64,000 nucleotides of DNA. It comes from Lachnospiraceae bacterium (GTDB lineage Bacteria; Bacillota; Clostridia; Lachnospirales; Lachnospiraceae). The stretch lies in NCBI GenBank assembly GCA_045631045.1, contig JAZQUB010000011.1, positions 1,214-65,213 on the forward strand, given 5' to 3'. The translations under genes and the position numbers were made by a program. The notes beneath the pieces were generated by a model, which was not told the DNA's origin, did no database searches, and saw nothing but the letters and a program-made list of their open reading frames with translations. This document shows, piece after piece, positions 7,466 to 25,944 of this stretch (positions within the stretch are counted from its first letter, which is position 1; every line of letters starts with the position of its first letter).

Positions 7466-8167
7466 TTATTTCACTTCCTCTTCCGCTTCCATCTCCTCGA
7501 TCAGTCTCATACCTGCGGTATCCGTCACCGGCAGGGAGAATACGATAGAGCGCGCTTTGGACTCCAGTCCTGCCTGTTCCATAATGGCACGCATAATATC
7601 GTTCTTTTGATTTTTGCGCACAACGATAAATACCATTTCCTTTTCCGGCACCAACGTTACACCCAAGAACTTCTCTGCCTTCTGGGCACCGGTACCTTTT
7701 GCATGAATTACCGTTCCGCCTGCCGCATGAACGCTTCTTGCAGCATCCATAATCAGTTCGGTATATCCATGATTTGCTATGACTACCAATAATTCATATT
7801 TTGTATCCTTCAATGTTGATTCCTCTCCCTTAACAAAATTCTGTCCGTCTGTTAAATAACCAAGTGCCTTTTTCCCACCGATACTGCTAATAGGTATCAG
7901 GAAGGCTATACCGATTCCCGGTACATCTATCTGCATTTTCCGTCGAAGTCCGGCTTTAAGGTTCTTCCAGACCGCTCCGGTTACCACATGAAAAAGAACG
8001 CTTTTTTCTGCACCGTCTAAGCCAAAGTAGTCCAGGATTTCACTTGCTGCCGTGCCTCGTCCACCGGTTGTTACGGAGATGTCCACACCATTTTCTTCAT
8101 AAAAGTTTGTAAATTTTTTGGTAAGATTACGATTGGTAATCGTCACCATCATATATAATTTGTTCAT
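7466..8167 (-). CDS. Tandem PII-like (GlnB-fold) protein
   Basis: 233 aa made of two halves of about 110 aa, each with a ferredoxin-like PII pattern (LYMMVTITNR... and YELLVVIANHG...GGTVIHAKGTG...). Lies immediately downstream of the DUF1538 gene. Confidence 0.65.
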   Translation of the reverse strand: MNKLYMMVTITNRNLTKKFTNFYEENGVDISVTTGGRGTAASEILDYFGLDGAEKSVLFHVVTGAVWKNLKAGLRRKMQIDVPGIGIAFLIPISSIGGKKALGYLTDGQNFVKGEESTLKDTKYELLVVIANHGYTELIMDAARSVHAAGGTVIHAKGTGAQKAEKFLGVTLVPEKEMVFIVVRKNQKNDIMRAIMEQAGLESKARSIVFSLPVTDTAGMRLIEEMEAEEEVK

Positions 8168-8180
8168 GTTTTATCCCTCA

Positions 8181-9743
8181 CTACAGCTCGATAATTGCAT
8201 CTTCATCCAGTGCCGCAAACGCATATTCCACTTCTGTCTTTTTGCCAAAATGCTGCTTCAACTGATATACCACACCCAAAATCTGTATGGTAATCAAAGG
8301 AGTCATTGCTACCATCGCTACTACACCAAAGGAATCCGCAACCAGATTACCGCCTACTGCAATACACGCTCCCTGCGCTAACGGAAGAAGGAAGGTGGCA
8401 GTCATAGGACCGGAAGCAACACCACCGGAGTCAAACGCAATGGCAGTAAAAATCTTTGGAACAAAAAATGACAGGATAATTGCTATCGCATAACCCGGAA
8501 TTGTAAAATACAATATCGGAATTCCTGTTAACACGCGGACCATTGCCAATGCTACAGAAGCGGCCACACCCACAGATAAGCTGATTCCCATTGCACTTGC
8601 TGAAATAGCACCATCCGTAATTTCTTCTACCTGATGATTCAAAACATAAACTGCCGGCTCTGCTTTTACTATAAAATAACCTATAAGAGCGCCTAACGGG
8701 ATAAGTAAAACTTTAAATTCATTTGATGCAAGCACTCTTCCAAGATAACTACCGGCCGGCATAAAGCCCACATTGGCACCGGTCAAAAACAGCACCAGCC
8801 CAATATATGTATAAACAAGGCCGATTACAATCTTGCCCAGTCTTCTATGTGACAATTTCAATGCAAAAATCTGGAACAATCCGAAAATTAAAATAATCGG
8901 TAATAAGGAAACGGCTATTTCCTTCATATATTCGGGAATACCGTGTGCAAACATTTCCCACAATTCCACAGAGTCCTGCACCTGCGGAATCTGTGCCGCC
9001 GTATAGCTACTTTCTGTAGGCTTATAAATCATACCCAAGATAAGCACCGCTAAAATCGGACCGATAGAACACAAGGATACCAAACCGAAGCTGTCGTCCG
9101 CCGCATGCTTATCATTACGAATTGCGGAAACACCGACACCAAGTGCCATAATAAACGGAACCGTCATTGGGCCGGTAGTAACACCACCGGAGTCAAATGC
9201 AACTGCTCTAAAATCCGATGGTACAAAAAATGCCAATATAAATACGATAATATAAAAAATCACCAAAAGATTCCTTAGTGCAACGCCAAGCAACATTCGA
9301 AGCATTGCAAATACAAGAAATACACCTACGCCGATTGCTACGGCAAGAATAAGCGTCATATTCGGTACAGACGGAACCTGGCTTGCTAAAACCTGCAAAT
9401 CCGGCTCGGATATGGTAATAATGACACCCAGTATAAAGGACATAATACCAATCAACCAGATGTTTTTAGATTGGGTCATTTTAGTACCAACCGCTTCACC
9501 CATAGGTGTCATGGAGGTTTCTGCGCCCAATGTAAAAAACATCATTCCCACAATTACCATCAATGCTCCCATCAAAAAACAGAGCAATATACTCGGCGTA
9601 ATCGGTGCAATGGTAAAACTCAGCACCAGTACAATGGCTATGATGGGAAGCACCGCCGTCATTGCTTCTTTAAATTTTTCCTGCAGTTTTTTATTCCAAA
9701 ATTTCAAGCTTTTACCTCTAATTCTTTTTATTCTTTCAGCCAC
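8181..9743 (-). CDS. DUF1538-type polytopic membrane protein (internally duplicated)
   Basis: 520 aa and very hydrophobic. Repeated motifs AFDSGGVTTGPMTVPFIMALGVGV and AFDSGGVASGPMTATFLLPLAQG. The ORF-track start is GTG overlapping the murF 3' end; the true start may be downstream (TTG about 9707 or ATG 9662). Confidence 0.7.
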   Translation of the reverse strand: MAERIKRIRGKSLKFWNKKLQEKFKEAMTAVLPIIAIVLVLSFTIAPITPSILLCFLMGALMVIVGMMFFTLGAETSMTPMGEAVGTKMTQSKNIWLIGIMSFILGVIITISEPDLQVLASQVPSVPNMTLILAVAIGVGVFLVFAMLRMLLGVALRNLLVIFYIIVFILAFFVPSDFRAVAFDSGGVTTGPMTVPFIMALGVGVSAIRNDKHAADDSFGLVSLCSIGPILAVLILGMIYKPTESSYTAAQIPQVQDSVELWEMFAHGIPEYMKEIAVSLLPIILIFGLFQIFALKLSHRRLGKIVIGLVYTYIGLVLFLTGANVGFMPAGSYLGRVLASNEFKVLLIPLGALIGYFIVKAEPAVYVLNHQVEEITDGAISASAMGISLSVGVAASVALAMVRVLTGIPILYFTIPGYAIAIILSFFVPKIFTAIAFDSGGVASGPMTATFLLPLAQGACIAVGGNLVADSFGVVAMVAMTPLITIQILGVVYQLKQHFGKKTEVEYAFAALDEDAIIEL

Positions 9744-15252: not shown

Positions 15253-18200
15253 TTATTTTAAGGTTTCCAAGACCTTTTCCGGAACCATAAAGCTTTCATA
15301 GGTTTCTGTCCCGGTTAAATCAAGCTCTGCTGAAAAAGCAACTGCCACATTTGTCACCAAAATGTCTACATTTCCGTCGCAGGCAAATCGGATACTTTGT
15401 ATCTTATTATCCTGTATGCGTACCTGCATGCTGCCATTCTCAAACTTAATTGCCATTTTTGTGCTTTCCTTTGCAATCGCAGCCGCAATCTCTGACATGG
15501 CATCTTCCTCCAACGCCAGACTATAAATGTACATATCATCCACTTCCGTACAGCTAAAGGTACCATGCAAAAATAATTCGTAAGCCAGTCCCAAAAGCAT
15601 GGCTGGCTCTATGCTCTCTGCGCTCTTGGTGGTCACAGAGTACCCCTTTTCATTGCAAATTTTATCTTCCGTAAAATACACAGAAACATCATTTTTCCGA
15701 ATGCAGTTCACCTGCAAATCATCCTGTTTCTTTGTTATAAACGTTATATCCTCTCCAACGGACAACGGACCGCAGTCTGCGTTCAAATAAATCTGCATGC
15801 CCAAAGGATTTCTGTCATCTAAGTCTTTCCATCCGGCATACAAACGGAACACATCTTCCGTCATAATTTCTTCCACCTTTGGCTGTTCGGACATAATAGC
15901 CTTGCGAACCTCTTGTGGAATTTCTATGGTCACCGCATCTGTATCTACCACCTTAAATTCCGCGGTAACAGTAAAGTCTTTTTTGTTTTCTGCTTTACCC
16001 TGAACTGTAAATAAAATGGAATCCAGTGCCTCTTCCTTTTCCACCACATCTACCTGCAGATGTTTCATTTCCAAAGCATCTTCTCCCATATTCGGAAGTA
16101 AGCATGTCAGAAGCTTTTCTTTGCTTTTCTCTTTTACGGTTATGCGATAAGTTAGGGACTCCTCTTCCTTTAAGCTCTCAATATCTACATCCTGATAAAG
16201 AAATACCAGGTAATTCATCAGTTCCGTGTAATCTGCTGACACTTCACTGGCACCATATGCCTTCCCATTTTCCAAGATAATCATTCCGTCCGCGTAGAAA
16301 AAAGACACGTCGGACTGACGGATACCGGTCACTTGATGTCCCTCCAAATCAGTAGTAAACACCATAGCCTCCACTTCCGACTGAGTATCGCCAAGCTTCG
16401 TTTGTACCGAAAGCTCCATGAACATTTCCGGCTGCTCCACATACTCTTTCAAAAGCTGATATGCACCTATTCCTCCCGTAAGCTTGCCCCTTAGAAGAAT
16501 TACAGCCAGTATAACTGCTAACACCACAATACATATTGCCAGCACCCATGCCAGCCATTTTACTATATTTTTCTTTTTACGTATCAACCAAACGACACCG
16601 CCTATCATTCCCACTATTACGATTACTGCTGCCAACCAGAGCGTCCAAAGCCGGGTAGTCTCCACCACTGCAATCTCCGCATTGGTTCCCGCAATATTTA
16701 CCACAAAATAACTTCCTGCCTTTTGTTCATCTGCCCGTTTCCACTTACCATCCTGCTTTACATATAAAGAAAGACCTTCCTTCTCCGCCTCCTTTGGCAA
16801 ATACCGCAACGTATGCAGTAAAAGTCCGTCCTCCGGCACTTCCACACTCCACTGCTCTAGAAGTTGCGTTTTGTTTAGCTTATCCCAAAAGCCTTGCTGC
16901 TCTTCCCATGCAAAATCCGGTTCTTTTTGTGTGATTTCCAAAATATCCTCTGCTGCAAATCTTCCCTCTGCCAAAAATACTGCTCTTCCGTCTGCACGAA
17001 CTTCTTTACTTTTCAAGGTAAAGATATCCATATCCGCTACGGTTGCATTTTCATTCATCAGCAAAGGAATGGTAACCTTTTCAAAATCCTTTGGAAGATT
17101 CTCCACCTCAAGTAACTCTTCATAGGAAATGGGCTCTGCCTGTCCCGCATAACTGATACGATTAATACCGGTCAAATCCTCTCCCACAAAATAGCATTCC
17201 AAATAGTCCCCCGCATGTATACCTGCAATAGCTCCTGTAAACTGCTGTGCTCCTGCCACATCCACCATGGAGTAACACCATCTTACGGTACTGCTTTCTC
17301 CGGTTGCATCCTCCGTGATTCCACTGCCCACAATGCCCCCAATATAATGCTTCCCGGCAAGACTGCATTTTGCAAAACACTTCTGCACGGTACTTCCCGT
17401 AAGCCCCGCAATACCACCTACATAATCGCCGCTCTCACTATAAATGGCACCATAGCCTTGGCAATCTGAAAGAAAACCCAAGTCCATGCGGCCGCAAATA
17501 CCACCTGCATAATGTTTTTTTGCAGTAACTACTGCGCTATTTTCACATTCATATATAATAGAAGTAAATTCATATTTACGGCGTTCTTTCATGGAAATTT
17601 CTGCCGTCAAATCGTCTTCCGGGTCAAGCTCGTATTCCAAGGAAATGGTTCCCGCAATACCACCTACGTTGATATCACCATAAATGGCCCCTTTGTTCCT
17701 ACTCTTCATGACCTTACCCAAGGTTGCAGCTTCCAGATTTACCTCAGAAATATCGTCTGCAAAATCACTTAAAGCCAAATGTTCCGCCTCTTCCATGACG
17801 TCTTCCAGCGTATCAGAAAGGCTGGATGCCTGCCGGCTGAGCTTTTCAACATCTTTTCCGAGAACCCCTGCCGTACCTGCTGTTTCCTGCGCCAAAAGTT
17901 CAATTTGCTTTATTAACACCGCGCTTTTAACTTGAAGATCTGAACGACTGTCACTGCCTTCCGTTTCCCCGTCAGCTTTGTCCAGCGCCTTTTCCATTTC
18001 CGCTGTATATGCCTTGATTTTATTGATACGCTTTTGTAACGTTGCATTTCCGGCATCTATACTTTTCTCCAGCGTTTCCACAGCTTCACTCAATTCTTTT
18101 GTTTCCTGACTAAGTCTGGCAATACCGCTGGCAGAAAGCTCTACCTCGATATACGGCTCCATCTGCCCTACAATACCGCCTACATCCTTTCGCCCATACA

Positions 18201-21200
18201 CCTCACCCAGGTTCTCACAGTCTGTCACAAATCCGCAGCTTCGTCCTACAATACCACCTAAATTATATCCGATATGAGCATATCCTATGGTTCCTGTATT
18301 GCTACAGCCTTCTAATACACCGGTAGAATAACCTGCAACGCCACCGGTATCGGCTGCAGCTCCTAATACATTCATGCTGTTAAGCTTAGACAAGTCCATA
18401 GATATATCCAGATTTAAGTCTTCCAAAGAAATGGCAGGATCCACGCTTACATTATTGACACATGCGTCATTCTTGCATTTGATAATGGAGCCTTGATTAT
18501 AACCGCATATACCACCTGTCATGGTCTCTCCAAGTACGGTTCCGCTGACACGACAATTTCTAAGCGTTGCCGATGTGCCATTAATACCTACAATACCGCC
18601 GGTATGGGTCTTTCCTTTTACCGTTCCCGTAAAGGTGCTATTTATAATTTCACCATAATTTTCGCCGACAATGCCTCCTACTGCTTCCTGTATGCCGGTA
18701 GGCTCTATATTACCGGTTACATTAACATTTTTAATAACGGCACCCTCTTGAAGCACACCAAATAACCCCGCTGGGGAAACACCGGAATTCACCTTTAGCC
18801 CGTGGATAGAATGCCCTTTGCCATCAAAAATGCCGCCAAAGGTCGGAATGGGCAAAAATTCCTCTTCCAGAAAAATATCTGCCTGAAGGACCACCGTCTT
18901 GCCACGAGACCAAGAATCCAGCTTGCAGTTCTCAGCCAGTTCCAATAAATCCTCTGCATCTTTAATTTTAATAGTTTCTTCGCTCACATAAGTAATATCC
19001 GCTGCCTGCACAGGAACTACGGCTCCACCAAGAACAACAGCCAATGCCAACACAACGATACCTCTTACCACATTTCGCCCACCTGTTTCCCCGGTATGAG
19101 AAATCCCCGGTACAGAGAAGGAAGTCTTGTCTATAATCTTTGCACCCACCAACAAAAGCTGTGGAAGAACAAACATAACCAGACAAATAGAAATCACCGT
19201 ACCTCTTGCCAAATTTAATCCCATATTGGCAATGGAGCCCTCGGAAGTCATATTACCGATAAAAAAGCTTGCCGTAGCCATAATCGTTCCCGAAATTGCA
19301 ATAGTCGGAAACGCAAAATTCATAGTTCCCACAATCGCCTGCTTATGCGGCATCTTGTCCTTCAATTCCATAAAGCGACTTGCAATCACAATGGCATAAT
19401 CGATATTGGCACCCATCTGAATGGCACTTACAATTAAATACGTCATAAAGAAAATACCATTTCCCGTAAAAGTCGGAACAGAGAAATTCATCCAGATACT
19501 GCCCTGAATTACTAAAATCAAAAGCAACGGCATGCCCACAGACTTAAAGGTAAATAACAATACTCCCAATACAATTAAAATGGTCAACACACTAATGACT
19601 GTATTATCCTTACTAAAGGTTTTCTGAAAATCATACTCGCTGGTTGGATTCCCAACCACATATACCTCTCCCTCCGGATAGTATTCCTCTGCAATTCCTC
19701 TCATGGTATCCAAAAAGGCATATAGGATATCTCCACCCTCCGGTATGTCCAGATACACTAACATGCGACTATAGCCCTCGCTTTGCAGCTGCTGCTTGGC
19801 ACTCTGCATCTGGGTCTGTGCCACAGAAAGCATTGCTTGTTGCTCCTCACCAAGAGACACCAGTCCTGAGTCTACCTGCTCACAGACAAATAAAAACATA
19901 TCAATGAGAGGCACTTTATATGTAGAAATACTGCTGATAATTTTTTCGTAGCTTCCCTGCTCTGCTGCATATGCCGCATAAATGACCTGCGCCAGTTCAT
20001 AATCCACATCTGTAAGCTCCGCAAATTCACGAGGATTTAAACTATCACTAAGTACATATCCCCCTAATGCCTCCACATTGGCAAGGCCCAAGGCAGACTC
20101 CACCTCTTCATATTCACTCAGACGTACCAAAATTTCCCCTTCCGCCTCATAATTTCCGGCAGGAAGTACCAAGGCCACCATCTCAGAAGAAGTAAAATTA
20201 TCCCCAATCATATGCTCCGCAATCTTTTTTTCATTTAATTTCGCCGTTTCCAGCCTGTTATATCCATACACATATGGACAATCTGCTGCAAAATGACAAG
20301 CTGCAAATATCACTACCACAAAAATCGGTGGAACAATAAAACGAGTGGCATAAGCAAACTTACCTATAAAAGGAATCTCCGGTATGAAATTTTTATGCTT
20401 GGTTTTATCCATCAAAGGACCAAACCATATTAAAAGCCCCGGCATTACTACAAATACAGAAAGTAACGCGAAGAAAATAGACTTAATCAGGTTAATCCCC
20501 ATATCCGGCCCAATTTTAAACTGCATAAATAACATAGCAAACAAACCACCAATGGTAGTCAGACTGCTGGCTGTAATTTCCGGAATAGACTTGCTAAGTG
20601 CTGCTACTACTGCCTCGTTAATCGGCAGGCTCTTATGTTCCTCCTTATAACGATTACAAAAAATAACCGCATAGTCCAAAGATAATGCAAGCTGCAGTAC
20701 CGTAGTCACGGAATTGGATACAAAGGAAATCTTGCCCATAATAAAGTTAGTACCCATATTCAGCACCGCCGCTACTATAAACGTCAAAAGAAGAACCGGG
20801 ATTTCCGCATAGGTCTGTGAGGTCAAAAGCAGCACCAAAATAATAATCACTGCTACATACACCATAATCACTTCCACTTCCCTTGCAATAATATCCGGAA
20901 GGGAATACCCAATTTCAGAGCCCACACATACATCCTGCCCTGCCAATACGTCCTTTACTTCTGCCAAAGACTTCTCACATCGGGAATCATACTGGTCATA
21001 ATCAAACATGACAGTATACAATGCAGAGGCATTCTGATAATGTGCAGAGGTCCGGTCAAAGGTCACACTTTGAACCCCTTCCACCTCTGATATATCGTCC
21101 ACATATGCAAGCGCATCTTCATATGTAATATTGGCAACCATCACATTGGCAGTCCCCAACGTAACAAAGTTGTCCTCCATAATTTCCATACCGAGTTTGG

Positions 21201-21345
21201 TCTCAGAATTCGACGGCAGATAAAATACCAGGTCATTTTCCACTTCTACCCATCCTATAGAAACAGCAGAAAATAGAAATCCTAAAATAACGAATAAAAA
21301 GAATAAATTGCGTTTTGCTACGATAAATGACGCGATTTTTGTCAT
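15253..21345 (-). CDS. Giant multi-domain envelope protein: MMPL/RND-type transporter fused to GLUG-repeat, coiled-coil and unknown C-terminal modules
   Basis: Single uninterrupted ORF. Likely start is MTKIASFIVAKRN at 21345 (GGGAGA RBS). Numbering uses the ORF-track residues. Residues 22-760 form two 6-TM bundles with MMPL-like motifs (LSLDYAVIFCNRYKEE, GANIDYAIVIASRF). Residues 855-1085 and 1240-1410 carry GGIVG/GGIAG/GGICG repeats. Residues 1090-1215 are heptad-rich. Residues 1586-1640 are two TMs. Residues 1650-2051 are a duplicated module. Confidence 0.85.
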   Translation of the reverse strand: MTKIASFIVAKRNLFFLFVILGFLFSAVSIGWVEVENDLVFYLPSNSETKLGMEIMEDNFVTLGTANVMVANITYEDALAYVDDISEVEGVQSVTFDRTSAHYQNASALYTVMFDYDQYDSRCEKSLAEVKDVLAGQDVCVGSEIGYSLPDIIAREVEVIMVYVAVIIILVLLLTSQTYAEIPVLLLTFIVAAVLNMGTNFIMGKISFVSNSVTTVLQLALSLDYAVIFCNRYKEEHKSLPINEAVVAALSKSIPEITASSLTTIGGLFAMLFMQFKIGPDMGINLIKSIFFALLSVFVVMPGLLIWFGPLMDKTKHKNFIPEIPFIGKFAYATRFIVPPIFVVVIFAACHFAADCPYVYGYNRLETAKLNEKKIAEHMIGDNFTSSEMVALVLPAGNYEAEGEILVRLSEYEEVESALGLANVEALGGYVLSDSLNPREFAELTDVDYELAQVIYAAYAAEQGSYEKIISSISTYKVPLIDMFLFVCEQVDSGLVSLGEEQQAMLSVAQTQMQSAKQQLQSEGYSRMLVYLDIPEGGDILYAFLDTMRGIAEEYYPEGEVYVVGNPTSEYDFQKTFSKDNTVISVLTILIVLGVLLFTFKSVGMPLLLILVIQGSIWMNFSVPTFTGNGIFFMTYLIVSAIQMGANIDYAIVIASRFMELKDKMPHKQAIVGTMNFAFPTIAISGTIMATASFFIGNMTSEGSIANMGLNLARGTVISICLVMFVLPQLLLVGAKIIDKTSFSVPGISHTGETGGRNVVRGIVVLALAVVLGGAVVPVQAADITYVSEETIKIKDAEDLLELAENCKLDSWSRGKTVVLQADIFLEEEFLPIPTFGGIFDGKGHSIHGLKVNSGVSPAGLFGVLQEGAVIKNVNVTGNIEPTGIQEAVGGIVGENYGEIINSTFTGTVKGKTHTGGIVGINGTSATLRNCRVSGTVLGETMTGGICGYNQGSIIKCKNDACVNNVSVDPAISLEDLNLDISMDLSKLNSMNVLGAAADTGGVAGYSTGVLEGCSNTGTIGYAHIGYNLGGIVGRSCGFVTDCENLGEVYGRKDVGGIVGQMEPYIEVELSASGIARLSQETKELSEAVETLEKSIDAGNATLQKRINKIKAYTAEMEKALDKADGETEGSDSRSDLQVKSAVLIKQIELLAQETAGTAGVLGKDVEKLSRQASSLSDTLEDVMEEAEHLALSDFADDISEVNLEAATLGKVMKSRNKGAIYGDINVGGIAGTISLEYELDPEDDLTAEISMKERRKYEFTSIIYECENSAVVTAKKHYAGGICGRMDLGFLSDCQGYGAIYSESGDYVGGIAGLTGSTVQKCFAKCSLAGKHYIGGIVGSGITEDATGESSTVRWCYSMVDVAGAQQFTGAIAGIHAGDYLECYFVGEDLTGINRISYAGQAEPISYEELLEVENLPKDFEKVTIPLLMNENATVADMDIFTLKSKEVRADGRAVFLAEGRFAAEDILEITQKEPDFAWEEQQGFWDKLNKTQLLEQWSVEVPEDGLLLHTLRYLPKEAEKEGLSLYVKQDGKWKRADEQKAGSYFVVNIAGTNAEIAVVETTRLWTLWLAAVIVIVGMIGGVVWLIRKKKNIVKWLAWVLAICIVVLAVILAVILLRGKLTGGIGAYQLLKEYVEQPEMFMELSVQTKLGDTQSEVEAMVFTTDLEGHQVTGIRQSDVSFFYADGMIILENGKAYGASEVSADYTELMNYLVFLYQDVDIESLKEEESLTYRITVKEKSKEKLLTCLLPNMGEDALEMKHLQVDVVEKEEALDSILFTVQGKAENKKDFTVTAEFKVVDTDAVTIEIPQEVRKAIMSEQPKVEEIMTEDVFRLYAGWKDLDDRNPLGMQIYLNADCGPLSVGEDITFITKKQDDLQVNCIRKNDVSVYFTEDKICNEKGYSVTTKSAESIEPAMLLGLAYELFLHGTFSCTEVDDMYIYSLALEEDAMSEIAAAIAKESTKMAIKFENGSMQVRIQDNKIQSIRFACDGNVDILVTNVAVAFSAELDLTGTETYESFMVPEKVLETLK

Positions 21346-21515
21346 AAAATTTTCTCCCGTTTTTTTGCGAGTTTCTTCATTTAATAAATACCATAATTTG
21401 CACGACATTTCAATGCAGCTTTTGTACTTTTCAGAAAAAACTGCTGACTTTTACCCTTATATATGATATAGTTAAATTACCAAATATAACTACAAAATCT
21501 TAAGGAGGAATACTT

Positions 21516-22040
21516 ATGTTAACATATGTATACTATAAAGATGTATTTCTCGAGAAACAGAAATATAATCACGAAAAGGATGAGAGCTTTTCCATGCAAT
21601 TCGCCAAAATTTTACTCGTATTTTTCCTGCTCTTTTTACTATGGAACGGCTATTCCCATTATAAACAAATAGAATTGATTCACCATGGTACCCCTGTGCT
21701 TGCAGACGTCTCTGTAGTAGGCGATGACAAATACATTTCCTTTACAGCAGAGGACGGAAAAACCTACGAAAAGCACATTTCCGGTATGTTTGTGGCTTAC
21801 GGAACCCATGAAGGAAGCAGCCGAACCTTCAAGCTCTCTGACCTCTTCTTTCAAGAACCCAGCGATACCATAGTGGTTTACTATCCAAAAGAACCGGCTA
21901 ATGCAACACCGCTGACTGAACCAATTTTCTTCTATATTATGTACGCTATTTCCGCTGCAGGTATTATGTTTGCGCTTTGGGTAATAAGAAGGACAAAACA
22001 AAGCATTGAAAAAAATAAGACGATAGTAGAAGAAGAATAA
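21516..22040 (+). CDS. Hypothetical two-TM membrane protein (DUF3592-like?)
   Basis: 174 aa. Strong AAGGAGG RBS; N- and C-terminal TM helices flank a beta-rich segment. Divergent from the giant gene. Confidence 0.6.
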   Translation: MLTYVYYKDVFLEKQKYNHEKDESFSMQFAKILLVFFLLFLLWNGYSHYKQIELIHHGTPVLADVSVVGDDKYISFTAEDGKTYEKHISGMFVAYGTHEGSSRTFKLSDLFFQEPSDTIVVYYPKEPANATPLTEPIFFYIMYAISAAGIMFALWVIRRTKQSIEKNKTIVEEE

Positions 22041-22090
22041 AAACAAGGCTGCCACATCAGTTTAAAAACCAATGTGACAGCCTATTTTGT
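22040..22090. terminator. Convergent bidirectional terminator
   Basis: AGGCTGCCACAT-loop-ATGTGACAGCCT, with an A-run upstream and TATTTTGTT downstream. Confidence 0.7.
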
Positions 22091-22881: not shown

Positions 22882-25800
22882 CTACAAATTAGAATGTTCC
22901 AATATATTATATGCCAATTCCTGCATTTTGGAAACATTTACTTTGCAAACCTTTCTGTCATATGTATAAAGACCGTTCACTTCGTCTTCCACGTCACTAA
23001 GCTGGGTATACACACATCCACAAATTCCTTTCTCCAGTCCGGGCAAAATCATTTCTTTATACATGTTTACAATCATGTCCGTCAGTGCTTCCTTATCCTC
23101 GGAACTGCCATAACCATACGTATTGTATTTACTATAATAATGCTCCTTTACCACCTGGGAATAGCCACCACACTCCGATACAAAAGCCGGTCGCTCCTTA
23201 ATCGTCGGCGGTGTCGTCTTAAAGTAAATGTGCGTACTGTCAAAGTCGTTTTTCTGCTGTGAAAACCAGCCGGATGTAGTATCCGCCAGTCGGGTATTAT
23301 CCAGACGCTTCACCAAATCATACATTTCATCACTGTTAAACTGACCCCAGCCTTCATTGAAAATGGTATATGCCACAATACTCGGATGATTGTACAACTG
23401 CTCTATGGTTTCTTTGGTATGCCTCTTAAAAATACGCATGGTTTCGTTTTCATGCTTTTTTACATCCTTTCGCTTCAACATACCAATGGTTGGAAGCGCG
23501 GTATCAAACAGGAAAGAATAACCACCGTTATTTACCATATCCTGCATCACTAACATACCATGCTTATCACAATAATAGTAAAACACCTCCGGCTCCACCT
23601 TAATATGCTTACGCAGCATGTTATACCCCAGCTCTTTCATGCGTAGAATATCTCTTTCGTATTCCTCCGGTTCTGCCGGAAGAAAAATGCCGTCACAGAA
23701 ATATCCCTGGTCTAAGACACCATGCATGAAAATCGGCTTGTTATTCAGACAAACATGATTTACACCACCCACATTCTGAATGTCTATTTTACGAAGTGCA
23801 AAATAGGTGTCCACCTCGTCTGTCTCTGTTACAATCTTCATATCATAAAGATGTGGATTGTTCACATCCCAAAGCTTTGGAGTGTAATTCTGACCGCTTT
23901 TGTCCACATGGTCAGTCAGTTTTATGTAACCTTCCCGCCCAATAAACTGTTTTTCCAATTGTTCACCATTAGACAATTGGATAATTACTTTAAATCCTTT
24001 TTCCTGTACGCCAGCTGCCTTTTTCAAGTTCTCTGCTAAAATTTCACCTGCCATGTTCAACGAAATTGTCACACCGTCCATATTCGGAGTCAACATCACT
24101 TTTGCAATATATGTCTCCGATACATTTTCCAGCCACACACTCTGCCAAATACCGCTGACCGGGGTATACCACATGCCGCCGCGCTCCTTGCATTGCTTAC
24201 CATAAGGATACTTTCTATCAAGACGGTCTGTCACCTTTACTACCAATCGGTTTCTTCTTTCACGCTCTATATTCGATGTAATATCCAGACAAAACGGTAG
24301 ATAACCGCCCTCATGCTTGCCAACGGGCACATCATTCACATAAACTTCCGCAATCTGGTCCACCGCACCAAAATGCAACAACACACGCTCCTTTGTAAAA
24401 TCTTCCGGAATGGTAAACTCCGTCTCATACACCAGTTTGGCTCCTATACGACCTTCAAACCCGGATAGAAGTGCCTGTGGTGGAAACGGCATACAAATCG
24501 GCTTACCGTTTAAGGTCCAGTTTTTATGTAAGATCACATAACCTGCTCGCTTCATCTGCGGTCTTGGGTATATGTCCCATGGGGTTGTGGACGAAGCCAG
24601 CACACGCTCCCCTGCCTCACTTACCAATCTATGATGTGCCACGCGCACCATATAAAAAATCGCATCCAGTACTAACAGCAATACTACTGCTGTCACAAAA
24701 GCTGCTGCCCAGATATTTCTATTTGGAAGAAAAGAAAATGTACCATCATTATTTTCAATCTGCTGTGCATTACGAAGTACAAATGCACCGATAGACGGTC
24801 CAACTACTCCCGGAATCAATACTTGTCCGATAATACGAATCCCTTGGAAACGACCTGCCATATTTTCCGGAATATGCTCACGAATTTTAGCACCAAATAC
24901 TGCCATACCACACAAGTAACCGCTCATCATAAGCAGCGAACCGATAAATACCGGCAAAGTACCTATACTTACAAACAAAATCAGATATCCTGCAAGCAAC
25001 ATTCCCACACATGGATACACGCTTTTTTGAAAACCAAGCTGGTCATACAAGCTTCCATAAACTGCGGTAAAAATGGCTGCCAAAATAATTGCCGGAGCCA
25101 GTACAAGGACATAATTTGTCATCTGTAAGGATTTTTCATAATACACAATTAAGTAAGGCATATACGTGTTGATAGAGATACCAAACACTGCAAAGGCTAC
25201 AATCACCGCATATAATAATTTATTATCCTTAAAGGTGCGAATCCGAAAACTGTAAAGCACATTTTGCAAATACGTAAACTCTTGTTTTTCTTCCGTGTTT
25301 CCGGACTGTACCTTTCTCGTCGGTGCTTCCTCAATCAGGAAAATACCCAGTGCACCAAGCACAATTACTATGCTGCCTATTATAACAAAAATCAAGGACC
25401 AACTGGATGCCAGATCCAAATTAAAGCCCATAAAACCGCCAAACACCACGAGAATTGCCACAAGCGGCATCATGGCATTAATACCCTCGATTTTACCACG
25501 GTTACTTTTATCACCCACGTCTGTCAGCCAGGCATTGTACGCTGCATCGTTTGCCGCGGAACCAAAAAAGATCATCACACAGTCCAGAATAATTACCAGA
25601 CTAACCCCCAGCGCTGCAGCTTGAACGGTACCGCCGCATAAAAGCGTCAAAACGTCCATTCTCACCAGACCAAATCCCAGTATAGAAACACCCCACACCA
25701 TGTACCCACCGCAAATGAATGTTTTGCGCTTACCAATATAATCAGATAATGCTCCGATTAAAATAGTAGTCAGTGTGGCCGCCACAGAGCTGGCACTTAC

Positions 25801-25944
25801 CATCAAGGAAATATCTGCTGCAGACGCATGAAACATTTTGTAGATAAATACATTCAGGTACATATTTTCTACCACCCATGCCACCTGACCTACCAATCCA
25901 AACAGCACAAGTGCTGCCCAAAATTTTTTGCCTAAGTTTTTCAT
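22882..25944 (-). CDS. Fusion protein: 12-TM MFS/GPH-like transporter (N) + glycoside hydrolase family 2 (C)
   Basis: Residues 1 to about 445 form 12 predicted TM helices with an MFS loop motif (GALSDYIGKRK). From about residue 465 come the GH2 sugar-binding, Ig-like and TIM-barrel regions, with NEGWG (acid/base Glu at 23353-23355) and SECGG (nucleophile Glu at 23173-23175). Confidence 0.8.
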   Translation of the reverse strand: MKNLGKKFWAALVLFGLVGQVAWVVENMYLNVFIYKMFHASAADISLMVSASSVAATLTTILIGALSDYIGKRKTFICGGYMVWGVSILGFGLVRMDVLTLLCGGTVQAAALGVSLVIILDCVMIFFGSAANDAAYNAWLTDVGDKSNRGKIEGINAMMPLVAILVVFGGFMGFNLDLASSWSLIFVIIGSIVIVLGALGIFLIEEAPTRKVQSGNTEEKQEFTYLQNVLYSFRIRTFKDNKLLYAVIVAFAVFGISINTYMPYLIVYYEKSLQMTNYVLVLAPAIILAAIFTAVYGSLYDQLGFQKSVYPCVGMLLAGYLILFVSIGTLPVFIGSLLMMSGYLCGMAVFGAKIREHIPENMAGRFQGIRIIGQVLIPGVVGPSIGAFVLRNAQQIENNDGTFSFLPNRNIWAAAFVTAVVLLLVLDAIFYMVRVAHHRLVSEAGERVLASSTTPWDIYPRPQMKRAGYVILHKNWTLNGKPICMPFPPQALLSGFEGRIGAKLVYETEFTIPEDFTKERVLLHFGAVDQIAEVYVNDVPVGKHEGGYLPFCLDITSNIERERRNRLVVKVTDRLDRKYPYGKQCKERGGMWYTPVSGIWQSVWLENVSETYIAKVMLTPNMDGVTISLNMAGEILAENLKKAAGVQEKGFKVIIQLSNGEQLEKQFIGREGYIKLTDHVDKSGQNYTPKLWDVNNPHLYDMKIVTETDEVDTYFALRKIDIQNVGGVNHVCLNNKPIFMHGVLDQGYFCDGIFLPAEPEEYERDILRMKELGYNMLRKHIKVEPEVFYYYCDKHGMLVMQDMVNNGGYSFLFDTALPTIGMLKRKDVKKHENETMRIFKRHTKETIEQLYNHPSIVAYTIFNEGWGQFNSDEMYDLVKRLDNTRLADTTSGWFSQQKNDFDSTHIYFKTTPPTIKERPAFVSECGGYSQVVKEHYYSKYNTYGYGSSEDKEALTDMIVNMYKEMILPGLEKGICGCVYTQLSDVEDEVNGLYTYDRKVCKVNVSKMQELAYNILEHSNL

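What the first reader, a model, noticed from the sequence alone, without database searches (positions are those of the whole stretch)
15253..21345. Roughly 2,030-aa single-polypeptide fusion of an MMPL/RND-type transporter with GLUG beta-helix repeats, a coiled coil and unknown modules
One uninterrupted 6.1-kb ORF combines parts that are normally separate proteins. (1) It has a complete 12-TM MMPL-like transporter with two periplasmic-type loops. (2) It has two blocks of GGIVG/GGIAG/GGICG (GLUG-type) repeats, which are typical of secreted beta-helical surface proteins. (3) A heptad-rich segment of about 125 aa sits between those two blocks. (4) A further TM pair follows. (5) The last roughly 400 aa form a duplicated module that I cannot assign to any family. 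MMPL proteins are known as lipid/glycolipid exporters in Actinobacteria. A covalent link to a large extracytoplasmic beta-helix scaffold would suggest an envelope export or assembly machine not described for Firmicutes. The ORF heads a long co-directional cell-wall block (srtB, LytM-like, amidohydrolase, ddl, murF).
Basis: partly seen in the sequence, partly recalled or inferred. Interest (0 to 1): 0.8.

Follow-up and report, generated by a model that had tools for sequence, protein, structure and literature searches.

The report
Transporter fused to its surface partner
This giant gene of a gut Lachnospiraceae bacterium joins a proton-driven lipid-type membrane pump to a large outer-face protein that hundreds of related species encode as the next gene, and that ends in two predicted lipid-carrier-like domains, pointing to an unstudied envelope export system in single-membrane gut bacteria.

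Summary
A 2,030-aa ORF lies on the minus strand (21345 to 15253) and is present full-length in many independent assemblies. It contains an MMPL/RND transporter with 12 TM segments and a conserved Asp-Tyr proton relay. A 13th TM follows that looks like a Sec signal peptide with an A-x-A site. Next come a GLUG beta-helix interrupted by a helical bundle, a beta-sandwich and a TM hairpin. The "unknown" C-terminal 400 aa is predicted with confidence to be two tandem LolA/LprG/RseB-like half-barrels.

The key new fact is that this is a gene fusion of a two-gene module. In 74 of 76 testable species-representative genomes, the MMPL gene and the partner gene are adjacent, overlapping ORFs. In 2 of 76 they are fused. 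Fusion recurs in at least 10 clades. The module occurs in at least 461 species of gut and rumen Clostridia, and I found no paper describing it.

The downstream cell-wall genes are syntenic only in close relatives, so they are probably not part of the system.

Most likely function (inferred, not shown): PMF-driven export of a lipid or other hydrophobic molecule, with hand-over to tethered carrier domains on a scaffold that projects into the wall. This would be analogous to mycobacterial MmpL with LppX/LprG. I rate it a new variant of a known kind.

The parts
15253..21345 (-). Whole CDS: 2,030 aa plus stop codon. A fused MMPL transporter and extracytoplasmic partner.
   Evidence: ORF list and translation. 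The exact product is on record and clusters with MBR2037995.1 'MMPL family transporter [Lachnospiraceae bacterium]'.
21353..21358 (-). Shine-Dalgarno-like GGGAGA, 7 nt upstream of the ATG at 21345-21343.
   Evidence: Read directly from the sequence.
19111..21345 (-). MMPL/RND transporter core, residues 1-745. TM1, loop 1 (34-156), TM2-6, TM7, loop 2 (355-581), TM8-12.
   Evidence: Pfam PF03176, E 5e-35. Hydropathy. PDB sequence hits to MmpL4/5/3, HpnN and SecDF. 45-50% identity to all 120 listed relatives.
20671..20676 (-). Asp224-Tyr225 in TM4, a candidate proton-relay pair.
   Evidence: Nearly invariant D-Y column pair in alignment A1.
19396..19401 (-). Asp649-Tyr650 in TM10, the second candidate relay pair.
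   Evidence: Nearly invariant in A1. Aligns with the 'TDY' of MmpL4/MmpL5 TM4 in the HMMER alignments.
19003..19110 (-). Short cytoplasmic linker plus TM13, residues 746-781. This is a former Sec signal peptide of the partner. Its c-region P-V-Q-A (778-781) forms an A-x-A-type site before Ala782.
   Evidence: Hydropathy. Split-gene partners start with typical signal peptides ending VLA|AE, VFA|AE and GSA|TE. The small-x-small site is kept in most independently fused forms.
18130..19002 (-). GLUG beta-helix, block 1, residues about 782-1072. Extracytoplasmic.
   Evidence: Pfam Glug, 6 stretches, E 2.6e-18. AF2 strands with pLDDT mostly above 90. Best fold matches are IgA1 proteases 7jgj/6xjb/7uvk. 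The PDB profile search hits 3n6z 'putative IgA1 protease'.
17776..18129 (-). Helical insert, residues about 1073-1190. Four helices, modelled as a bundle.
   Evidence: AF2 helices at model positions 297-318, 324-349, 354-377 and 384-411, pLDDT 55-82. Foldseek matches to four-helix bundles with target-normalised TM-score 0.6-0.76. The insert is 150 to about 450 aa in relatives.
17146..17775 (-). GLUG-type beta-helix, block 2, residues about 1191-1400.
   Evidence: GG[IV][AVC]G repeats in the sequence. Pfam support is weak (9.4 bits). Conserved in all GLUG-type relatives and modelled as beta-helix strands.
16651..17145 (-). 'MID' module, residues 1401-1565. The structured part is a beta-sandwich (about 1442-1564). 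No family assigned.
   Evidence: AF2 strands at model positions 665-787. No Pfam hit. Present in most partners.
16492..16650 (-). TM hairpin, residues 1566-1618. TM14 (1570-1588), cytoplasmic RKKKNIVK turn, TM15 (1600-1618).
   Evidence: Hydropathy. Short-form partners end at the equivalent of TM14 followed by a poly-Arg/Lys tail.
15856..16491 (-). LolA/LprG/RseB-like domain 1, residues 1619-1830. Extracytoplasmic.
   Evidence: AF2 pLDDT 90.2, pTM 0.76. Foldseek hits to RseB, LolA, LprG and LolB with E 2.7e-6 to 1e-3.
15256..15855 (-). LolA/LprG/RseB-like domain 2, residues 1831-2030. A duplicate of domain 1.
   Evidence: BLASTP of domain 1 against domain 2 gives E 3e-4 over 163 residues, in register. 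The order of secondary-structure elements is the same.
22046..22083 (-). Strong terminator-like hairpin after the upstream ZIP gene. It marks the 5' limit of the transcription unit and is context, not part of the protein.
   Evidence: 17-bp stem followed by a T-run.

Best explanation
The ORF is a natural fusion of the two subunits of a conserved, so far unstudied envelope module of gut and rumen Clostridia.

Subunit 1 is a proton-motive-force-driven MMPL/RND transporter.

Subunit 2 is a membrane-anchored protein on the outer face of the membrane. It consists of:
- a signal-anchor;
- a GLUG beta-helix carrying a helical insert;
- a beta-sandwich;
- a TM hairpin;
- two tandem LolA/LprG-like half-barrels.

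Proposed mechanism:
1. The MMPL core picks up a lipid or other hydrophobic amphiphile from the membrane.
2. It expels the substrate on the outer face.
3. The tethered LolA-like domains receive it.
4. The rigid beta-helix and helical scaffold docks on the pump's outer loops and projects into the cell wall.

This parallels mycobacterial MmpL pumps working with the LolA-fold lipoproteins LppX and LprG.

The retained A-x-A site after TM13 suggests that signal peptidase may still cut the fusion into two chains.

Shown: the architecture, topology logic, fusion, gene linkage, fold assignments and conserved relay residues. Inferred: the substrate class, the hand-over, physical docking and processing.
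For: Architecture.

Proton relay: the D224-Y225 and D649-Y650 pairs are nearly invariant and align with the MmpL4/5 TDY motif.

Fold of the C-terminus: AF2 pLDDT 90.2. Foldseek gives RseB 2.7e-6, LolA 4e-6, LprG with PIM bound 9.7e-5, and LolB, with 31 PDB hits at E<=1e-3.

Obligate partnership:
- In 80 species-representative loci, 74 have a separate MMPL ORF overlapping the partner ORF, 2 are fused and 4 are cut by the contig end.
- The three looked-up loci show overlaps of 8-32 nt.
- The syntenic locus L008 (57% identity) is split.
- Fused forms fall in at least 10 separate clades of the MMPL tree. Recurrent fusion is a classic sign of a stoichiometric complex.

Topology: there is a basic cluster in the loop between TM14 and TM15, and signal peptides on the split partners place the partner outside.

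Precedent: MmpL7 with LppX, and MmpL11 with LprG (PMC8427324); LprG-Rv1410 lipid export (PMC4709180).

Sister clade: an MMPL fused to a long extracytoplasmic coiled coil shows a family-wide theme of projecting stalks.
Against: - No substrate evidence of any kind exists.
- No lipid-synthesis genes are consistently adjacent.
- The LolA-like assignment rests on a predicted structure. No Pfam or PDB sequence match supports it. TM-scores are modest (0.39-0.54 on the target), partly because the query has two domains.
- Only about a third of partners (28 of 80 loci) carry the LolA-like module, so it cannot be essential to the core mechanism.
- These bacteria are thought to have a single membrane, so the destination of an exported lipid is unclear.
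- LolA folds can serve non-lipid roles, as GerS does.
- Docking between the pump and the partner was not modelled.
Confidence: 0.55

Rival explanations
1. It is a detoxifying efflux pump for bile acids, free fatty acids or other hydrophobic xenobiotics of the gut. This would resemble the TetR-controlled MmpL-type pump FarE of Staphylococcus (recalled from my own knowledge, not tested here). The partner would be only a stabilising or sink subunit.
For: Divergent TetR-family regulators lie directly upstream in distant members L003, L004, L006 and L010. A choloylglycine-hydrolase-family gene is the next gene, on the opposite strand, in L003. The organisms are gut and rumen inhabitants.
Against: No TetR gene is next to the window gene or its close relatives. 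A partner of 900-1,500 aa is an unusually large investment for simple efflux in a bacterium without an outer membrane. LolA/LprG-type domains are best known for acyl-chain cargo.
Confidence: 0.25
2. It is a cell-wall remodelling device. The LolA-like domains or the helical insert would bind and activate the neighbouring M23 peptidase or another hydrolase, as GerS activates CwlD, using pump-driven conformational change.
For: M23 peptidase, amidohydrolase, Ddl and MurF follow the gene in the window, L001 and L008. An SH3-NlpC/P60 gene lies two genes downstream in L002. GerS is a LolA-fold activator of an amidase in a Clostridium relative.
Against: The hydrolase neighbours are not conserved in L003, L004, L006, L009 or L010. 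The only invariant neighbour is the MMPL gene. There is a promoter-like site between the giant gene and the sortase, but no evidence of co-regulation.
Confidence: 0.1
3. It is a surface adhesin or host-interaction protein, built on an IgA1-protease-like beta-helix, that merely uses the transporter as a membrane anchor.
For: The best fold and sequence matches of the beta-helix are streptococcal and Gemella IgA1 proteases. GLUG repeats are common in surface proteins.
Against: No HExxH or other protease motif is present. Strict genetic coupling to an MMPL pump with intact relay residues argues that transport is central. The ectodomain is tied to the membrane at both ends, which limits its reach.
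Confidence: 0.07
4. It is an artefact: an assembly chimera, or a sequencing frameshift that falsely joins two genes.
For: Most relatives have two overlapping genes one indel away from fusion.
Against: The identical or near-identical full-length ORF is found on 10 or more contigs from different projects. Sixteen full-length homologues at 52-93% identity keep the same junctions. Here the fusion also removed about 45 aa of the MMPL tail, which is not a single-base error.
Confidence: 0.02

Closest known systems
Mycobacterial MmpL transporters with LolA-fold lipoproteins (MmpL7 with LppX; MmpL11 with LprG; LprG-Rv1410)
   Same: An MMPL-type RND pump with Asp-Tyr relay pairs, plus an extracytoplasmic lipid-carrier-fold protein that is genetically or physically linked to the pump.
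   Different: Here the carrier-fold domains are in tandem and are TM-anchored rather than lipid-anchored. They are covalently fused or co-operonic. They come with a 780-aa unit made of a beta-helix, a helical bundle and a beta-sandwich. The hosts are Clostridia, which have no mycomembrane. Sequence similarity to MmpL3/4/5 is low (E 1e-5 to 1e-3).
MmpL4/MmpL5 siderophore exporters (PDB 9gi0, 8zkp, 9rfu)
   Same: These are the closest solved sequence relatives of the pump core. From my own knowledge, not tested here, they also carry a projecting periplasmic coiled-coil stalk.
   Different: Their stalk is an insert in the second porter loop and their accessory protein is MmpS. Here the projecting parts belong to a separate or fused C-terminal partner.
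Streptococcal/Gemella IgA1 metalloproteases (M26; PDB 6xjb, 7jgj, 7uvk, 3n6z)
   Same: A GLUG-repeat right-handed beta-helix. These are the best fold and profile matches.
   Different: There is no protease domain and no HExxH. The matches are weak (Foldseek E 0.04-0.1).
LolA / LolB / RseB / LprG superfamily (unclosed beta-barrel carriers of acyl chains)
   Same: The predicted fold of each half of the C-terminal module.
   Different: No detectable sequence relationship. The arrangement is a tandem duplication. It sits in bacteria thought to have one membrane, where no Lol pathway exists.
Sister clade of clostridial MMPL proteins fused to a long Ala/Gln-rich coiled coil plus 3 TM (P0059-P0120)
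   Same: The same pump core (45-51% identity), and a 13th TM followed by a large extracytoplasmic extension that is re-anchored in the membrane.
   Different: The extension is purely coiled coil, with no GLUG helix and no LolA-like module.

Membership tests
RND superfamily, MMPL family (Pfam PF03176) | Score above the Pfam gathering threshold, matching both halves | tested here: met
   121.4 bits against a cut-off of 20.5, with two stretches.
RND superfamily, MMPL family (Pfam PF03176) | 12 TM segments with large outer loops after TM1 and TM7 | tested here: met
   Hydropathy peaks and loops at 34-156 and 355-581. TM5 is weakly hydrophobic and is inferred from the alignment.
RND superfamily, MMPL family (Pfam PF03176) | Asp-Tyr proton-relay pairs in TM4 and TM10, as in MmpL3/4/5 | tested here: met
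   D224-Y225 and D649-Y650 are nearly invariant in 56 sequences and align with MmpL4/5 TDY. Proton coupling itself was not tested.
Named MMPL/HAE subfamilies (NCBIfam TIGR00921 HAE3, TIGR00833 actII, HpnN, MmpL3) | Score above the curated family cut-off | tested here: not met
   94.8 against 351.9; 89.1 against 874.7; 55.8 against 751.9; 20.7 against 1400.
GLUG repeat proteins (Pfam PF07581) | Repeats above the gathering threshold | tested here: met
   Whole protein 43.3 bits. Block 1 alone 65.5 bits with 6 repeats, against a cut-off of 20.5. Block 2 reaches only 9.4 bits.
IgA1-specific metalloprotease (M26) | Zinc-protease domain with HExxH | tested here: not met
   No HExxH anywhere in the 2,030 aa. 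Only the beta-helix matches.
LolA/LolB/LprG/RseB fold superfamily | Unclosed antiparallel beta-barrel with helices, shown by structural similarity | tested here: met
   AF2 pLDDT 90.2. Foldseek probability 1.0 with E 2.7e-6 (RseB), 4e-6 (LolA) and 9.7e-5 (LprG). This is a predicted structure, not a solved one.
LolA/LolB/LprG/RseB fold superfamily | Sequence membership in a curated family (LolA, LppX_LprAFG, MucB_RseB) | tested here: not met
   No Pfam hit for the window module or for five diverse homologues. No PDB profile hit.
LolA/LolB/LprG/RseB fold superfamily | Binding of acyl chains or lipid in the cavity | not testable with these tools
Sortase-anchored surface proteins | C-terminal LPXTG-type motif, then a TM, then a basic tail | tested here: not met
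   The C-terminus is ...PEKVLETLK. Short-form partners end in a TM and a basic tail without a motif. The sortase gene is absent from syntenic L001.
Tripartite RND efflux systems (pump + membrane-fusion protein + outer channel) | Adjacent HlyD/MFP and OMF genes | tested here: not met
   None among the neighbours in the window or in the ten looked-up loci.

The most novel reading that the evidence does not exclude
The MMPL-partner module is a dedicated machine that moves a membrane lipid or glycolipid out of the cytoplasmic membrane and across the wall of single-membrane gut Clostridia, including Faecalibacterium, Roseburia and Agathobacter relatives. It would use tethered LolA-like carriers on a rigid beta-helix stalk. 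That would be an RND-driven lipid-trafficking route of a kind known so far only from bacteria with an outer membrane or mycomembrane. It would imply an unrecognised surface lipid layer, or lipid release to the host.
Probability: 0.25. Interest if true: 0.85.

Novelty: new variant of a known kind. Interest (0 to 1): 0.62.

Why it matters
RND/MMPL pumps with carrier-fold helpers are central to envelope building in mycobacteria and in Gram-negative bacteria. Nothing comparable is described for the dominant gut Clostridia.

This module is very common. It has at least 461 species-level representatives and thousands of 90%-identity protein clusters. It is strictly paired and has fused repeatedly, which gives a ready hypothesis for a physical complex.

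It offers a concrete handle on how single-membrane anaerobes export lipids or hydrophobic compounds past the wall. That bears on bile and fatty-acid tolerance, surface chemistry and host signalling.

The fused form in this window is a convenient single-chain target for structure determination.

Tried and rejected
- Pfam and NCBIfam scans of the MID and C-terminal modules, for the window and for eight diverse homologues, gave nothing credible.
- A PDB profile search with the whole partner alignment returned only a weak IgA1-protease hit plus coiled-coil noise.
- I searched the window for the small beta-rich protein of about 105 aa found upstream of the MMPL gene in some loci. There was no hit.
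- I searched the 640-bp upstream gap for a remnant of the AP-endonuclease gene that relatives carry there. There was none.
- I tested whether the conserved cytoplasmic tail of split MMPLs is a bactofilin. Pfam gave no support.
- I looked for HExxH and for a sortase signal. Both are absent.
- Newer Pfam accessions listed for the sister clade (PF24161, PF23649, PF27881, PF28019) did not come up in a scan of four of those proteins with the local Pfam copy.
- Six literature searches found no description of the module.
- I rejected the cell-wall operon reading because the synteny is not conserved.
- I rejected a chimera because the ORF is found in independent assemblies.
- I could not inspect model coordinates. 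Continuity of the two beta-helix blocks and the cavity of the LolA-like domains therefore remain unchecked.


Full report
**1. The observation**

A single ORF occupies the minus strand from 21408 to 15253. The first ATG gives 2,051 codons. The ATG at 21345 has a GGGAGA seven bases upstream and gives 2,030 aa. This exact sequence is on record as a called gene on a 65-kb NCBI contig. It belongs to a 90%-identity cluster that contains MBR2037995.1, "MMPL family transporter [Lachnospiraceae bacterium]". Full-length members of that cluster lie on at least ten contigs from different sources. GC content is even along the gene. Full-length homologues of 2,031-2,167 aa run from 93% down to 36% identity. 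The ORF is therefore real and is not a chimera.

**2. Anatomy**

Pfam finds MMPL (E 5e-35, both halves) and Glug. NCBIfam finds only sub-threshold matches to HAE3, actII-type MMPL, HpnN and MmpL3. The only solved relatives by sequence are MmpL4, MmpL5, MmpL3, HpnN and SecDF.

Hydropathy gives the following layout:
- TM1: residues 15-33.
- Loop 1: residues 34-156.
- TM2-6.
- TM7: residues 336-354.
- Loop 2: residues 355-581.
- TM8-12: ending at 735.
- A long hydrophilic stretch.
- TM14 (1570-1588) and TM15 (1600-1618), separated by RKKKNIVK.
- A final 412 hydrophilic residues.

RND proteins end in the cytoplasm. TM13 therefore puts residues 782-1565 outside. The hairpin returns the chain to the cytoplasm and out again, so residues 1619-2030 are also outside. 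The basic turn agrees with the positive-inside rule (inference).

Asp224-Tyr225 (TM4) and Asp649-Tyr650 (TM10) are nearly invariant in 56 relatives. They align with the TDY motif of MmpL4/5. From established knowledge of MmpL3-type pumps, this motif is the proton relay.

**3. The outer parts**

I predicted residues 778-1565 with a 56-sequence alignment (mean pLDDT 82.8, pTM 0.66). The model shows:
- a beta-helix (protein residues about 791-1071);
- four helices (about 1074-1188, pLDDT 55-82);
- a second beta-helix stretch (about 1196-1387);
- a beta-sandwich (about 1442-1564).

Foldseek against the PDB gave IgA1 proteases as the best matches for the beta-helix (7jgj, 7uvk, 6xjb; E 0.04-0.1, probability about 1). 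It gave small four-helix bundles for the insert. A profile of the partner family hit only 3n6z, "putative IgA1 protease" (E 0.0056). There is no HExxH, so this is a scaffold and not a protease.

I predicted residues 1619-2030 with 77 sequences (pLDDT 90.2, pTM 0.76). The model is two copies of a helix followed by an antiparallel-sheet half-barrel. Foldseek returned RseB (2.7e-6), LolA from four species (from 4e-6), M. tuberculosis LprG (9.7e-5; target-normalised TM-score up to 0.54) and LolB, with 31 hits at E<=1e-3. The two halves align with each other at E 3e-4. No Pfam model matches this module or the beta-sandwich.

**4. Relatives: the decisive result**

An exhaustive HMMER search with the C-terminal module found 292 clusters at 50% identity. 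Most are proteins of 1,300-1,650 aa with no MMPL domain. They have an N-terminal hydrophobic segment, GLUG block 1, the helical insert, GLUG block 2, MID, two TM segments and the C-terminal module. Others, of about 400-470 aa, are a TM anchor plus the module alone.

A search with residues 778-2030 gave 4,945 significant clusters among the 8,000 candidates scored. They are named "GLUG motif-containing protein" or "hypothetical protein" and come from Fusicatenibacter, Faecousia, Coprococcus, Oscillospiraceae and others.

In all three stand-alone cases I looked up, an MMPL gene of 804-816 aa lies directly upstream and overlaps the partner gene by 8-32 nt. One of them, L008, is syntenic with the window: MFS-GH2, ZIP, MMPL, partner, sortase, M23, amidohydrolase, Ddl.

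A scan of one genome per species found more than 600 pattern matches, of which 461 were confirmed as relatives. Among the 80 loci returned:
- 74 have a separate MMPL ORF overlapping the partner ORF;
- 2 are fused (Agathobacter sp. and a Lachnospiraceae bacterium);
- 4 are cut by the contig end.

So every testable locus pairs the two. About a third of partners (28 of 80) have the LolA-like module. The rest are "short forms" that end after MID with one TM and a poly-basic tail.

A neighbour-joining tree of MMPL domains places fused forms in at least ten separate clades among split forms. The split L008 sits inside the window's otherwise fused clade. Fusion, and perhaps fission, has therefore happened repeatedly.

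**5. The junction**

Split partners begin with classical Sec signal peptides ending in VLA|AE, VFA|AE or GSA|TE. Split MMPLs carry a conserved cytoplasmic tail of about 60 aa. In the window, most of that tail and the signal peptide's charged start are gone, but the hydrophobic core and P-V-Q-A|A-D remain. Other independent fusions keep the whole tail and also keep a small-x-small site. I infer that signal peptidase may still cleave the fused protein. This is untested.

**6. Neighbourhood**

Downstream on the same strand lie a sortase, an M23 peptidase, an amidohydrolase, Ddl, MurF, DUF1538 and a P-II-like protein. Upstream is a ZIP transporter ending in a strong terminator.
- The M23 to MurF block recurs in L001 (66% identity) and L008.
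- The sortase is missing in L001.
- Distant family members have unrelated neighbours, often a divergent TetR regulator.

The only constant neighbour is the MMPL gene. I therefore treat the cell-wall block as lineage-specific context.

**7. Mechanism**

The best reading is a PMF-driven exporter of a lipid or hydrophobic amphiphile. Its substrate is received outside by tethered LolA/LprG-like domains. The beta-helix and helical scaffold would act as an accessory subunit reaching into the wall.

The precedent is mycobacterial. PDIM export needs MmpL7 and the LolA-fold lipoprotein LppX. LprG interacts with MmpL11, and the LprG-Rv1410 pair exports triacylglycerides (PMC8427324; PMC4709180). A sister clade of these clostridial pumps is fused instead to a 350-500-aa coiled coil re-anchored by three TM segments. 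This suggests that projecting stalks are a family theme.

Weak points:
- There is no substrate evidence.
- The LolA-like module is optional across the family.
- The fold assignment is from a prediction.
- LolA folds can have non-lipid roles, as in GerS.

The rivals are listed separately: xenobiotic efflux under TetR control, hydrolase regulation, adhesin, and artefact.

**8. Novelty**

Databases already label the protein "MMPL family transporter", so the gene is not new. Six full-text searches found no description of the MMPL-GLUG partner pairing, the partner family or its LolA-like module. I rate it a new variant of a known kind: an RND pump plus an extracytoplasmic accessory or carrier. The interest lies mainly at the level of the family rather than in this one fused gene.

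Noticed in passing
window 22882-25944 (minus strand): A 1,020-aa ORF fuses an MFS transporter (residues 30-383) to a glycoside hydrolase family 2 enzyme (sugar-binding and TIM-barrel domains). The same fusion (1,095 aa) is present in the syntenic locus L008. A transporter-enzyme fusion of this kind is unusual.
   Followed up: partly
window 21516-22040 (plus strand): A divergent 174-aa ORF lies in the gap upstream of the giant gene. It has two hydrophobic segments flanking a beta-rich stretch and no Pfam hit. Relatives L001 and L008 have an AP_endonuc_2 gene at this position instead, and no remnant of it is present here.
   Followed up: partly
L009 5234-5548; L010 5170-5517; L006 7008-7403; also L011, L012, L013, L020, L027, L074, L080: A small protein of about 105 aa, with no signal peptide and a beta-rich sequence, is encoded directly upstream of the MMPL gene in about ten loci. 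There are two sequence types and neither has a Pfam hit. No homologue is in the window. It may be a third, cytoplasmic component in some lineages.
   Followed up: partly
L008 about 7820-8008; L009 about 7850-8032; L010 about 7840-8020; P0027 and relatives: Split-gene MMPLs, and several fused ones, carry a conserved cytoplasmic C-terminal tail of about 60 aa with a Gly/Val/Ile repeat (GRIxIDGxVxGEIHGxISGTVRAxVDGDVNLNVISG). It has no Pfam match. It is largely deleted in the window protein.
   Followed up: partly
proteins P0059-P0120 (relatives, not in the window): A large sister clade of clostridial MMPL proteins (1,150-1,390 aa; some clusters have hundreds of members) is fused to a 13th TM, 350-500 aa of Ala/Gln-rich coiled coil and three more TM segments.
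   Followed up: partly
L006 7074-13315 and L007 (relatives): In one lineage the module is broken into five or more consecutive ORFs: MMPL pieces, the GLUG part, MID and two C-terminal pieces. It is probably a decaying pseudogene or the result of sequencing frameshifts.
   Followed up: no
window 7466-9743 (minus strand): A DUF1538 membrane protein (520 aa) is followed by a 233-aa protein with a P-II-like domain, at the end of the co-directional block.
   Followed up: no
L012, L087, L088 (record titles): A few loci carrying the module are labelled Bacteroidaceae, Bacteroides sp. or Anaerovibrio sp. in their records. One protein cluster is labelled both Bacteroidales and Lachnoclostridium. These labels may reflect binning errors in metagenome-assembled genomes rather than true occurrence outside Clostridia.
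   Followed up: no
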